Shown: one piece after another, positions 9,001-12,000 of the stretch
Position numbering within the stretch: position 1 is the stretch's first letter
Layout: each line of letters begins with the position of its first letter
Source of the DNA: a virus
DNA: 25,192 nucleotides
Strand: one strand, 5' to 3'
Virus genome (UHGV): UHGV-1402771
Made by a program: the position numbers

Positions 9001-12000
9001 TGTGATTGACGACATAAAGCTCTGCGCCGTGGAATGGCACGTTGATAGTAGATACTGCTGTTGCTATACTTTTCATGTCAGTTTTTCCTCAAAATTTACT
9101 GGCGATTTAAGCCCGAGCTACTCGCAATAGCTTGGGCTTTACTCATTCTGGACAAACAATTCCATCCTTAGCTACTGACTCCTTTAGTCTCCTCAATACC
9201 TCATTACTGAACGACCGATCATCCTTTTTCGCGGACTGCTCCAAAGCCTTTTCTAGCCATTCTGGCATCCTTAATGTCTTAACTTTCATTTTTGCTCCTT
9301 TGTATATGGTACGCATACATAGTATTTAGGTACGCATTGATAGTCAATAGATACCTACATATCCTGTGGTAAATAATTATTCAGGATGCGCCGATGTCTG
9401 ATCGTAAGTACAAAAACCCTCAAGTGAATCTGAGGCTTCCTGTAGAGATAAAGGAACGTCTTATTGAGCTGGCTGAGGCTAATTCTCGTTCATTAAATGC
9501 TGAGATGGTCGCGGCACTTGAAGCGTGGACCGAAAAAAATAAACACATTCAAGCACTAGACCTTGCAACTATAGCATCGCGGTTGATAGAGCTTGAGCAT
9601 GAGGTTGAGAAGTTAAAATGTATGCATGGCAACGGTGAAAAATGAAACGCATCGCTATTTTGTTAATATTGTTCTTCTCTACAATAGTTTGCGCCAAACA
9701 AAAATCAGATAATGGCTATCTTAAAGGCCTGCAAGAACTCATGATAACTTCGAAATTTGCTGGCATGTGCGGCACAATCAAACAAATGGCAACATTTCAA
9801 GAATCAACAAAAATGCCTGGCGGAGATGAGTTCTTACAGCGTTTTCTGACCACAGAGCAAGCAAGACTTGGAATGAATCCACAGGAGTTTCTTGAAGCAT
9901 GCCAGAAGTCAATTTCAGCTTATACCAATTATTACAATCTAACTTCTGATAAATAATAGAAAGGATTTTATAAATAACTTTATGAAAAAATCACTATTAA
10001 TTATCCCGCTTCTGCTGGCTGGATGCGCAAAAGTAAGTGACTATCAAGCAAGTTGCGAACAACGCTATCCAAAGCTTAGTGATATGGCTAATTGCCTTGA
10101 TGCCAGCGTGAAGAACGACTCACGCATGGCATCAGCACCAACACCTAAGCTGTATGTCCTTGCTGCGAAGATGCTCGGGCAAGGTGTCGATGAAGGCAAG
10201 ATAAGTGACGCACAGGCAAGACTTGAGCTTCAGAATCTTTATGTTCAATTACAAAGCCAAGAACAAGCCCAACAAATAGCACAAAGCCAAGCATTCCAGC
10301 AGGCTTTATTGAATTATCAGGCTGTAAACACAATGCAAGCGATCGAGCAAAAAGCGAGACAGCCTGTTATAACTCAACCTTACCCAACGCGTGTTGACAC
10401 CTATACAAACTGCAATTCAGGATTTGGAAACACCGTCACATGCAACAGTAGCAGCAACATTAGATAAAGCTATTCATATTCATTCATACCGCTTAACGAG
10501 GCGACAATACCAGCTCTCGACAAGCGATTGAATTCATCGCTACCAATAGCATCGCGTATTGCTTTTACGGCGGCTTTATTTGCCATAAATCTGCGTTCCG
10601 CCGCCGCTAATGCTTCTTTACTTCCGCCAGCTCTTACTGCTTTCGTGGCTTCCTGAACTGCTTTCTCTATCGCATATCGGCCGCTACGCGTGGTGGCAAT
10701 TTTAGATACAGCACCTTTTAACCCGGCGCCAACTAAAGCACCTGCGGCAGCGCCTGCAATGCCCCCTCCTGCTCCACCAACAATGGCACCTGATGTTGAG
10801 TTGGCAATTGCATTTAACACTGTTGATGTGACGTTGGATAAACCGGCATCCAGATCGCGTAGTACATTGGCAGTTCTCCCTGTTCTTTCAATATACTGCT
10901 GAGGTTTCACTGCTGCTCTTGCAAGAGTGCCATATGCATCAGCAATTCTTCCGAGTTCTGAGGAATATCTGCTAATGGCTTTTACATTTTGTGGGGTAAG
11001 TATCCCTGCGATATGGTTAATTCCTGCTGCATCAGCTTTGCCACCACGTACACCATGCGAGATAGCATCTTGCAACATTGATGATATAGCAGGAACACGC
11101 TCTGATTCTGGCAGCGCGCGGATCATAGAATGGAACCCAGCAGGACCATTAAGACCTTTAGCTGACGATGATTGAAGGGATTTTACTCCATTCGTAATCA
11201 GTGCATCTGTTGCCAAATCACGCCCGAAAACAGACTCTGCACTCTCTTGTGCTGATAACCTCGCTTTAGACAGATCATTAGCTTTCTGCCAGTCATCAAG
11301 AAATCCGCCGTTTTCCGCCATTGTGCGCATATCATCAGTAATTTCCCGGCGTATTTCCCATGCTCTCCTTGCCGCATTTGCCTCTCCGCTACGCTTATAT
11401 TTTTGCTCCGCATCAGCAAATTTCGCTCTCCATGCTTTCATGCCATCAAATGTTACTCCACCTTGATTGTTTGCCTGAACAAACTGTTTCATTTCAGGAG
11501 TAAGCGGTATGCCAGCAGATCGCTCTGCCTGAATAACGGCATTACCATTTAGCATTCTTGCTTTTTGATTTGGCATTGTTGACCGCACGTCATCCCATGC
11601 CGCGCGCTCGGCATCCTTCATCTGATCAAGATTTTGAAGAATCCTTTGTTTTATAGCCGCACTTTTTTCTGATGCCGTTCCAGATGCGGCCCCAAATTCA
11701 TCAAGGTTTCGACTTAACTTTGATGATATTTCGTTAAATGCTGCCTGATGGGCGTCCTGAACAATTCCTGGTGTTGATGCCAATGCGCCTTCGGCTTGTG
11801 CAATTCCACGACTTCCAGATCGCATTCCTGGTGTTAATGCGTTTATATCAATTCCAGCAGACTCAGCCGCTTTTGCTACATCTTCGGACACATTAGCGGC
11901 CTGACTGGCAATTGACTGACGCCCAGCACCTGACTTTGCCATCCTGGAAACATCATTAGCAGAATTCAGTGCTGCACCACCAAGAGCCTGTGAAACCCTT

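What the first reader, a model, noticed from the sequence alone, without database searches (positions are those of the whole stretch)
9077..9393. immI-like bistable switch with a palindromic operator
The divergent arc-like/ant and mnt-like genes flank a 31-bp imperfect palindrome (9327-9357) and a 9-bp direct repeat (GGTACGCAT), the expected architecture for overlapping Arc and Mnt operators controlling the antirepressor. The arc-like gene is only 48 aa and would be missed by length-filtered ORF calling.
Basis: partly seen in the sequence, partly recalled or inferred. Interest (0 to 1): 0.45.

Follow-up and report, generated by a model that had tools for sequence, protein, structure and literature searches.

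The report
P22-type immI antirepressor control region
This is the secondary immunity (immI) module of a CUS-3/P22-like prophage (antirepressor, antisense RNA and two small repressors around a shared control region); it is a diverged copy of a classic, well-understood circuit, so it is largely ordinary.

Summary

The interpretation as a P22 immI homologue is strongly supported: Pfam Arc and P22_AR domains, Ant 56% identical to P22 Ant, the same position between the ejection-protein and tailspike genes, and a sar-like antisense RNA with its promoter inside ant.

The "palindromic operator" is only partly supported:
- A palindrome of that quality is not beyond chance in this window.
- Its inner arms are two overlapping -35 hexamers of back-to-back promoters.
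- Its outer right arm is not conserved in relatives.

What is conserved is three GTAC-centred boxes exactly 21 bp apart (9308, 9329, 9350) and a dyad over the predicted Pant start. Position 9301-9349 stays 80-98% identical where synonymous sites are saturated.

Repressor alleles, operator sequences and promoter geometry all differ from P22. Which protein binds which box is inferred, not shown. RefSeq already annotates both genes as Arc-family proteins. Interest is low.

The parts
8153..9076 (-). ant, antirepressor gene (307 aa)
   Evidence: Pfam P22_AR_N 3.9e-44 and P22_AR_C 5.6e-28. 56% identical to P22 Ant over the full length. 94.7% nucleotide identity to the CUS-3 ant region.
9042..9070 (+). 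Psar-like promoter inside the 5' end of ant: TTGATA, 17 nt, TG-n-TATACT
   Evidence: 10 of 12 consensus match with an extended -10. It ends 6 nt inside ant, the same geometry as the annotated P22 Psar (15097-15125, with ant starting at 15091). Function is inferred.
9077..9143 (+). sar-like antisense RNA covering the ant ribosome-binding site. Hairpin 1 is at 9077-9103, with anti-SD CCUC in the loop. The terminator hairpin is at 9109-9139.
   Evidence: Rfam RF00262 sar: 29.3 bits, E=0.0035, full model length, but below the gathering score of 43. MFE -25.9 kcal/mol, z=-5.8, 0 of 200 shuffles fold as well. 6 of 12 terminator-stem pairs show compensatory changes across 11 relatives including P22.
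9143..9289 (-). arc-like gene (48 aa, ribbon-helix-helix), first gene of the arc-ant operon
   Evidence: Pfam Arc 25.1 bits against a cut-off of 20.4. 31% identical to P22 Arc. PDB hits to Arc variants. SD AAGGAG at 9295-9300. Strong purifying selection, for example 90% nucleotide and 100% amino-acid identity with L069 (pS 0.48, pN 0). Annotated as WP_021528598.1 in RefSeq.
9301..9319 (.). Dyad TGTATaTGGTACGCATACA over the predicted Pant start. The consensus in relatives is TGTATG-N7-CATACA.
   Evidence: The pattern is unique in the window with 1 mismatch, 0.06 expected. 7 of 9 pairs in most relatives, 6 of 9 here. Both arms are conserved, including the left arm in the arc leader where no promoter element is expected. 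An operator role is inferred.
9308..9316 (+). Box R1 (GGTACGCAT), GTAC centre at 9310.5, at the predicted Pant transcription start
   Evidence: 8 of 8 match to GGTAYGYA in nearly all relatives.
9319..9347 (-). Pant-like promoter: -35 TTGACT (9347-9342), 17 nt, -10 TACTAT (9324-9319)
   Evidence: Consensus scan, 9 of 12. In relatives the -10 keeps TA-n-TAT (TACTAT or TAATAT), the -35 keeps TTGAC-n, and the spacing is fixed. The transcription start (about 9312) is not measured.
9329..9337 (+). Box R2 (GGTACGCAT), centre at 9331.5, in the Pant spacer and abutting the Pmnt -35
   Evidence: It lies 21 bp from R1.
9327..9357 (.). It is part of a quasi-symmetric layout (-10, box, -35/-35, box, -10) centred on 9342.
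   Evidence: 11 of 15 pairs. Not beyond chance alone. Outer-arm complementarity is 2-6 of 6 in relatives. R2 and R3 each lie 7.5 bp upstream of their own -10 hexamer (coordinates).
9337..9365 (+). Pmnt-like promoter: -35 TTGATA (9337-9342), 17 nt, -10 TATCCT (9360-9365)
   Evidence: Consensus scan, 9 of 12. Relatives vary inside the -10 but keep TA-nnn-T at the same columns: TATCCT, TACTAT, TAATCT, TATTCT, TACCAT, TAACAT.
9350..9358 (+). Box R3 (GATACCTAC), a degenerate third box with centre at 9352.5, in the Pmnt spacer
Evidence: 6 of 8 match to GGTAYGYA here and 8 of 8 in 10 of 29 representative relatives.
9394..9645 (+). mnt-like gene (83 aa): an N-terminal ribbon-helix-helix domain plus a C-terminal heptad-repeat helix
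   Evidence: Pfam Arc 3.1e-10. The best PDB hit is Mnt repressor 1MNT, 3.3e-5. 42% identical to P22 Mnt residues 5-40. The C-terminus is not alignable to P22 Mnt. An a/d pattern (L58, I61, L65, L68, V72, L75) is read directly from the sequence.
9642..10467 (+). Two small ORFs with signal or lipoprotein-type N-termini (9642-9956 and 9982-10467), probably co-transcribed with mnt
   Evidence: The first start overlaps the mnt stop (ATGA). PHROGs 19844 and 6067 are of unknown function. They occupy the position of orf59a/sieA in P22. Co-transcription is inferred.

Best explanation
The interval is the control core of an immI ('ant moron') module of a CUS-3/P22-like (Lederbergvirus) prophage.

Shown by homology and anatomy:
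- The gene order is the same as in P22: tailspike, ant, sar-like RNA, arc-like, divergent promoters, mnt-like, with an ejection-protein gene beyond.
- The two repressors are ribbon-helix-helix proteins.

Inferred layout:
- Pant (- strand, -35 at 9347-9342, -10 at 9324-9319) drives arc-ant.
- Pmnt (+ strand, -35 at 9337-9342, -10 at 9360-9365) drives mnt and two downstream ORFs.
- The promoters are back to back and share only their -35 regions.
- Three GTAC-centred boxes lie two helical turns apart: R1 on the Pant start, R2 in the Pant spacer, R3 in the Pmnt spacer.

Inferred mechanism, by analogy with P22:
- In the lysogen the Mnt-like tetramer occupies the two identical, most conserved boxes R1 and R2, together with the surrounding dyad. 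This silences Pant.
- The weaker R3 gives autoregulation.
- After infection or loss of Mnt, Pant fires. Arc-like protein accumulates and shuts the region down again.
- sar-like RNA, made from a promoter inside ant, pairs with the ant ribosome-binding site and blocks translation.

The recognition strands are KVKTLRMP in the Arc-like protein and PQVNLRLP in the Mnt-like protein, the latter carrying Arc-type Gln/Asn/Arg. Together with the operator sequences, they differ from P22, so the module should have its own immI specificity.
For: - Domains and homology.
- Synteny with P22, CUS-3 and SEN22 and with RefSeq annotations.
- sar-like RNA: Rfam E=0.0035 at exactly the arc-ant spacer on the antisense strand, z=-5.8, compensatory pairs, and a Psar-like promoter with P22 geometry.
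- Promoters: consensus hits, plus column-wise TA-nnn-T and TTGA conservation and gap-free spacing in 57 distinct intergenic sequences.
- Constraint: 9301-9349 is 39-48 of 49 identical, while arc pS is 0.5-0.99 and the mnt leader is 4-8 of 28 identical in the most diverged relatives.
- Boxes: unique in the window and in 21-bp phase.
- Assignment of the boxes to Mnt-like: PQVNLRLP is nearly invariant (one PQVNLRMP) in all loci carrying the boxes, while the Arc-like strand varies (KTLR, KTIR, KTVR, SSVR, VSVR). An mnt-only remnant in Xenorhabdus keeps the -35, R3 and part of R2.
- Family-level covariation: Proteus and Armatimonadia relatives with other recognition strands have other repeated palindromes between the divergent genes.
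Against: - No binding, transcript or phenotype data exist for this allele. Promoters are consensus matches of 9 of 12.
- The sar hit is below Rfam's gathering score.
- The box-to-protein assignment is weak. Two different recognition strands imply two motif types, but only one repeated motif plus a dyad is evident. Invariance of R1 and R2 could equally reflect promoter or leader constraints.
- The R3-type correlation with the Mnt C-terminal type is confounded by physical linkage and phylogeny.
- A 21-bp centre spacing may be too long for one P22-Mnt-like tetramer.
- The Mnt-like C-terminus shows no sequence similarity to the P22 Mnt tetramerisation domain.
Confidence: 0.85

Rival explanations
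1. One reading: the 31-bp palindrome (9327-9357) is itself the shared operator. A symmetric repressor oligomer binds the inverted half-sites TAGGTA/TACCTA and so controls both promoters at once.
For: - The dyad is centred exactly between the two promoters, and R2 and R3 sit at mirror positions 7.5 bp upstream of each -10.
- Within the clade that carries the window-type Mnt coiled coil, the TACC form of R3 is kept in 19 of 21 distinct combinations, across several Arc clades.
- Photorhabdus temperata has a perfect TAGGTACCTA at R3.
Against: - 11 of 15 pairs is not beyond chance.
- The inner arms are explained by the two -35 hexamers.
- The outer arm drops to 2-4 of 6 in many relatives that keep the same recognition strands, and becomes a direct GGTAYGYA box there.
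- The right half (9350-9365) is much less constrained than 9301-9349.
- The half-site centres are about 25 bp apart, which is not an integral number of helical turns.
- The model ignores R1 and the dyad at the Pant start.
Confidence: 0.2
2. The module is a decaying, non-functional remnant, and the conserved DNA is only recent common ancestry.
For: - The ant moron is highly fluid, and degraded arc and ant genes are reported in other P22-like phages (PMC2629481).
- SEN22 ant is split by a transposon.
- L066 has a truncated arc.
Against: - All three ORFs are intact here.
- arc shows pN of 0-0.25 against pS of 0.5-0.99.
- The core is conserved across Escherichia, Salmonella, Arsenophonus, Xenorhabdus, Photorhabdus and Chimaeribacter, while flanking non-coding DNA is randomised.
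- The sar stem shows compensatory changes.
Confidence: 0.05
3. The two small ribbon-helix-helix genes belong to a toxin-antitoxin or partition system rather than to antirepressor control. Some records label Mnt homologues 'partition protein ATPase'.
For: - PHROG 795 and 2685 and the RefSeq labels for P22 mnt and its SEN22 homologue read 'partition protein ATPase'.
- Weak Pfam matches to the FitA-like and CopG families, below their cut-offs.
Against: - There is no toxin or ParA-type gene next to either ORF.
- The label is also attached to the experimentally defined P22 mnt, so it is an annotation error.
- arc is followed by ant, with a sar-like RNA between them.
Confidence: 0.02

Closest known systems
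Immunity I (immI) region of Salmonella phage P22: mnt, Pmnt/Pant, Oarc, Omnt, arc, sar, ant
   Same: - Same gene order and strands, and the same place between the gene 16-type ejection protein and the tailspike.
- Ant is 56% identical.
- Both repressors are Arc-family ribbon-helix-helix proteins.
- There is an antisense RNA of sar length and two-hairpin shape, with its promoter 6 nt inside ant.
   Different: - Arc is only 31% identical, and Mnt 42% identical in the N-terminal domain only.
- The Mnt-like strand carries Arc-type Gln-Asn-Arg in place of the His-Asn-Arg of P22 Mnt (read from the alignment).
- P22 Omnt is absent, and no similarity to Oarc was seen by eye.
- The promoters are back to back and share only their -35 regions, instead of fully overlapping.
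- There are three boxes in 21-bp phase instead of one 21-bp Oarc plus one 17-bp Omnt.
ant moron of Escherichia phage CUS-3 (CP000711) and Salmonella phage SEN22 (NC_028696)
   Same: - CUS-3: ant, the control region and the first mnt are near-identical (94.7% over 86% of 8100-9700).
- SEN22: sar, arc and the control region are 87% identical, and the 48-aa gene is annotated 'Arc-like repressor'.
- The same neuO and endosialidase tailspike cargo as CUS-3 lies nearby.
   Different: - CUS-3 carries a different arc allele (46 aa, unannotated), an extra 67-aa Cys-rich ORF between arc and sar, a P22-type sar hairpin and a second, P22-type mnt.
- SEN22 ant is interrupted by a transposon.
Rfam RF00262 (sar RNA)
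   Same: Full-length match, the same two-hairpin topology and the same genomic position.
   Different: The score of 29.3 bits is below the gathering score of 43. The terminator stem sequence differs, with compensatory changes.

Membership tests
P22-type immI (immunity I) module | Antirepressor gene homologous to P22 ant | tested here: met
   Pfam P22_AR_N and P22_AR_C well above their cut-offs. 56% identity over the full length.
P22-type immI (immunity I) module | Small Arc-family repressor gene immediately upstream of ant and co-oriented with it | tested here: met
   Pfam Arc 25.1 bits against a cut-off of 20.4. BLASTP against P22 Arc gives 31% identity, E=6e-6. There is a 66-nt gap to ant.
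P22-type immI (immunity I) module | Divergently transcribed Mnt-type repressor: a ribbon-helix-helix domain plus a C-terminal oligomerisation domain | tested here: inconclusive
   The ribbon-helix-helix domain is met. The C-terminal 35 residues show a heptad a/d pattern but no sequence similarity to P22 Mnt. The oligomeric state was not tested.
P22-type immI (immunity I) module | Antisense sar RNA across the ant ribosome-binding site, with Psar inside ant | tested here: inconclusive
   In favour are position, strand, length, fold (z=-5.8), covariation and a promoter-like site. Against are the Rfam score below gathering and the lack of transcript data.
P22-type immI (immunity I) module | Location in the late operon between the ejection-protein gene (gene 16 type) and the tailspike gene | tested here: met
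   Tailspike at 5107-8052 and a 705-aa ORF at 10470-12587. The ORF at that position in near-identical E. coli loci is annotated as a P22-gp16 family ejection protein. The order matches CUS-3 and P22.
P22-type immI (immunity I) module | P22 operator sequences (Oarc, Omnt) and fully overlapping Pant/Pmnt | tested here: not met
   The Omnt pattern is absent from all loci except P22. The same scan gives overlapping promoters in P22 and back-to-back promoters here. This argues for a different specificity and layout, not against homology of the module.
P22-type immI (immunity I) module | Arc and Mnt bind the intergenic operators and repress Pant | not testable with these tools
   Needs EMSA or footprinting and reporter assays.
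Arc/Mnt ribbon-helix-helix family (Pfam PF03869) | Profile match above the gathering score for both small proteins | tested here: met
   25.1 and 40.2 bits against a cut-off of 20.4. PDB sequence hits to Arc and Mnt.
Rfam RF00262 sar | Covariance-model score at or above the gathering threshold (43 bits) | tested here: not met
   29.3 bits, E=0.0035 in a 2.5-kb search. It works like sar by position and structure but is not a formal Rfam member.

The most novel reading that the evidence does not exclude
This is a re-wired immI design with its own immunity specificity. P22's two distinct operators inside fully overlapping promoters are replaced by three helically phased GTAC boxes distributed over two back-to-back promoters. 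They would be read by an Mnt-like protein that carries Arc-type recognition residues. CUS-3-type phages, described as lacking arc, would in fact use this cryptic arc allele.
Probability: 0.45. Interest if true: 0.3.

Novelty: new member of a known kind. Interest (0 to 1): 0.2.

Why it matters
The main value is for annotation and phage-biology bookkeeping.

- It shows that CUS-3-like K1 prophages, which carry the neuO virulence modifier, have a complete arc-sar-ant-mnt circuit. The literature had suggested that arc is missing.
- It gives concrete operator and promoter candidates for testing how Ant-mediated induction is held off in these prophages.
- The Arc/Mnt pair is a classic model for ribbon-helix-helix specificity. 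A natural Mnt homologue with Arc-type contact residues and a different, phased-box operator could be a modestly useful comparison case.
- It does not open a new kind of system.

Tried and rejected
1. Similarity of the control region to P22 Oarc and Omnt. The Omnt pattern is absent. Only short TGATAG/ATAGTA matches to Oarc were seen by eye, and they coincide with promoter hexamers, so I rejected them as evidence.
2. Covariation between recognition-strand residues and box sequence, to assign operators. Within about 160 IMG/VR loci and 10 genome loci the Mnt-like strand is essentially invariant. Arc-strand variants (T to S, V to P) show no matching DNA change, so this was uninformative.
3. R3 form against Mnt C-terminal type. 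The association is strong, but I rejected it as proof because R3 is physically linked to mnt and the classes are largely clades.
4. An alternative Pmnt (TAGATA, 18 nt, AATAAT at 9348-9377). I rejected it because 9366-9393 is not conserved.
5. The longer 57-aa arc start at 9316. I rejected it because it has no Shine-Dalgarno sequence, its ATG lies inside box R1, and RefSeq uses the 48-aa form.
6. The toxin-antitoxin or partition reading. I rejected it (see the rival explanations).
7. The inverted repeat 9265-9275/9379-9389. No rationale emerged and it is probably chance.
8. The genome-contig scan gave only 10 loci. They were useful for host range but too few for statistics.
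Full report
**Context**

The window is a P22-like (Lederbergvirus) prophage closest to Escherichia phage CUS-3. CUS-3 matches 8100-9700 at 94.7% identity over 86% of the query. The gene order around the finding is:
- endosialidase-type tailspike, 5107-8052 (-);
- ant, 8153-9076 (-);
- a 66-nt spacer;
- a 48-aa ORF, 9143-9289 (-);
- a 104-bp intergenic region;
- an 83-aa ORF, 9394-9645 (+);
- two small ORFs;
- a 705-aa ORF (10470-12587, -) in the position of the gp16-type ejection-protein gene.

This is the place and order of the P22 immI region as annotated in NC_002371.

**Checking the observation**

- 9327-9357 has 11 of 15 complementary pairs.
- GGTACGCAT occurs at 9308 and 9329 and nowhere else in the window.
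- The small ORF has a strong Shine-Dalgarno sequence (AAGGAG, 5-nt gap).

The statistics are mixed.
- Palindromes of this quality occur 6 times in the window, against 3.6 expected. Alone, the palindrome is not evidence.
- The 9-mer is the head of a 21-nt tandem repeat with 16 of 21 matches. That is rare, with 0.02 expected.

**Identity of the genes**

- The 48-aa protein matches Pfam Arc above its cut-off. It is 31% identical to P22 Arc.
- The 83-aa protein matches Pfam Arc. Its best solved relative is Mnt (1MNT), and it is 42% identical to the P22 Mnt N-terminal domain.
- Ant has both P22 antirepressor domains and is 56% identical to P22 Ant.
- The arc-like ORF is under strong purifying selection. 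One relative is 90% identical in DNA and 100% identical in protein. pN is 0-0.25 against pS of 0.5-0.99.
- RefSeq already annotates the ORF as WP_021528598.1, 'Arc family DNA-binding protein', and as 'Arc-like repressor' in SEN22.
- It is missing from the CUS-3 GenBank record. There an unannotated 46-aa allele (MKVKTLRMPEKLEK...) lies inside a 'boundary sequence' feature.
- Villafane et al. [quoted passage not shown] The present analysis removes that puzzle.

- 9077-9143 (+) matches Rfam sar over the full model (29.3 bits, E=0.0035). This is below the gathering score of 43.
- It folds into two hairpins at -25.9 kcal/mol, z=-5.8. The loop of the first hairpin carries CCUC, complementary to the ant Shine-Dalgarno sequence.
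- Half of the 12 terminator-stem pairs show compensatory changes across 11 relatives including P22.
- A promoter-like site with an extended -10 lies at 9042-9070, ending 6 nt inside ant. This is the geometry of P22 Psar.

**The control region**

I collected about 160 related loci from IMG/VR and 10 from reference genomes. They gave 57 distinct intergenic sequences that align without gaps through the core, apart from single-base indels in four of them.

Constraint:
- 9301-9349 is 39-48 of 49 identical to the window, even where arc synonymous sites are saturated.
- The mnt leader (9366-9393) has decayed to 4-8 of 28 in the most diverged relatives.
- So the region is under strong constraint, strongest on the Pant side.

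Promoters (consensus scan):
- Pant-like: - strand, TTGACT at 9347-9342, 17 nt, TACTAT at 9324-9319.
- Pmnt-like: + strand, TTGATA at 9337-9342, 17 nt, TATCCT at 9360-9365.
- Relatives support both. The -10 columns keep TA-nnn-T while the inner positions vary (TATCCT, TACTAT, TAATCT, TATTCT, TACCAT, TAACAT for Pmnt; TACTAT or TAATAT for Pant). The TTGA/TCAA columns are invariant.

Comparison with P22:
- The promoters here are back to back and share only their -35 regions.
- The same scan on P22 recovers the annotated, fully overlapping Pant and Pmnt.

**What the palindrome is**

- Its inner arms ATTGA/TCAAT are the two overlapping -35 hexamers.
- Its outer arms are box R2 with its flank (TAGGTA) and box R3 read on the other strand (TACCTA).
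- Across 29 representative relatives the outer arm scores 2-6 of 6. In 10 of them R3 is a direct copy, GGTAYGYA.
- The conserved plan is therefore three GTAC/ATAC-centred boxes at 9310.5, 9331.5 and 9352.5. They lie exactly 21 bp apart, on one face of the helix. R1 is on the predicted Pant start, R2 in the Pant spacer and R3 in the Pmnt spacer.
- R2 and R3 each lie 7.5 bp upstream of their own -10. This makes the whole promoter pair quasi-symmetric about 9342 and explains why a palindrome is seen.
- A second dyad surrounds R1: TGTATG-N7-CATACA at 9301-9319, with one mismatch in the window. It is unique in the window, and both arms are conserved. Its left arm lies in the arc leader, where no promoter element would explain the conservation.

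**Mechanism (inferred)**

By analogy with established P22 biology (Sauer, Susskind and colleagues, cited), I expect the following.
- Mnt-like protein made from Pmnt in the lysogen represses Pant.
- Arc-like protein made from Pant feeds back on the region after infection.
- sar-like RNA blocks ant translation.

I assign the invariant R1 and R2 boxes to the Mnt-like protein for three reasons.
- Its recognition strand, PQVNLRLP, is essentially invariant wherever the boxes occur. The Arc-like strand varies.
- R1 and R2 lie wholly within Pant, so binding there would spare Pmnt.
- An mnt-only remnant in Xenorhabdus keeps the -35, R3 and part of R2.

This assignment is weak, at about one chance in three to one in two. 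Where Arc-like protein binds is unresolved. Candidates are the TGTAT/ATACA dyad and the -35 overlap.

The Mnt-like strand carries the Gln-Asn-Arg contact set of P22 Arc rather than the His-Asn-Arg of P22 Mnt (read from the alignment). P22 Omnt is absent. The module should therefore be heterospecific to P22 immI.

More distant relatives have other recognition strands and show other repeated palindromes between the divergent genes. Proteus has TGTGAYATCACA twice. An Armatimonadia MAG has three copies of a GGACCACCGTGGTCC-type palindrome resembling P22 Omnt. This fits operator and protein co-evolution at the family level.

**Verdict**

This is a real, functional-looking immI module and a diverged member of a classic, well-characterised system. 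It is already annotated at the protein level in RefSeq. The 'palindromic operator' is better described as a symmetric promoter pair with three phased boxes. Novelty is limited to the allele and the inferred operator and promoter layout, so interest is low.

Noticed in passing
window 4240-4953 (-), repeats at 4886-4950: A hexapeptide-repeat acetyltransferase ORF begins ATG-TC followed by 9.3 perfect copies of the heptad AAGACTC (GAGTCTT on the + strand). This is the hallmark of the phase-variable polysialic-acid O-acetyltransferase neuO of CUS-3. With 9 copies the ORF is in frame.
   Followed up: partly
window 5107-8052 (-): The 981-aa tailspike has a P22-type head-binding N-terminus. It lies in the position of the CUS-3 endosialidase tailspike siaK1, so the prophage is a K1-capsule-specific CUS-3 relative.
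   Followed up: partly
window 9642-9956 and 9982-10467 (+): Two small ORFs lie directly downstream of mnt. They have signal-peptide and lipobox (LLAGC) N-termini, and the first start overlaps the mnt stop. PHROGs 19844 and 6067 are of unknown function. They occupy the slot of orf59a/sieA in P22, so they are probably expressed in the lysogen and are candidates for exclusion or conversion functions.
   Followed up: partly
L001 (CUS-3 CP000711) 4041-4447 and 4768-5016: CUS-3 has an unannotated 46-aa arc-like ORF and an extra 67-aa Cys-rich ORF between arc and sar. It also has a second, P22-type mnt whose cognate P22 Omnt is not present in the 7.7-kb locus. This may be an orphan repressor acting on superinfecting P22-type immI phages.
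   Followed up: partly
L172 (Armatimonadia MAG JBDKRC010000165), about 150 bp upstream of the Mnt-like gene: Three copies of a palindrome (GGACCACCGTGGTCC, GAACCACCGTGGTCC and an imperfect third) lie between divergent ribbon-helix-helix genes. They closely resemble the P22 Mnt operator AGGTCCACCGTGGACCT, in a genome assigned to a distant phylum.
   Followed up: no
L173/L174 (Proteus mirabilis and P. vulgaris), upstream of the Mnt-like gene: A related divergent ribbon-helix-helix locus has a different recognition strand (TPYSLRMP). Two copies of the palindrome TGTGAYATCACA flank back-to-back -35-like hexamers.
   Followed up: no
L002 (Salmonella phage SEN22) 345-2500: The ant homologue is split by an inserted transposase element, while arc, sar, the control region and mnt remain intact.
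   Followed up: no
window 9265-9275 / 9379-9389: An 11-nt inverted repeat (91% complementary) has one arm in the arc coding region and the other at the mnt ribosome-binding site. No rationale was found, and it is probably chance.
   Followed up: no
window 2807-4000 (+): A tyrosine integrase (Arm-binding, central and catalytic domains) lies near neuO. This is consistent with a prophage end lying within the window.
   Followed up: no
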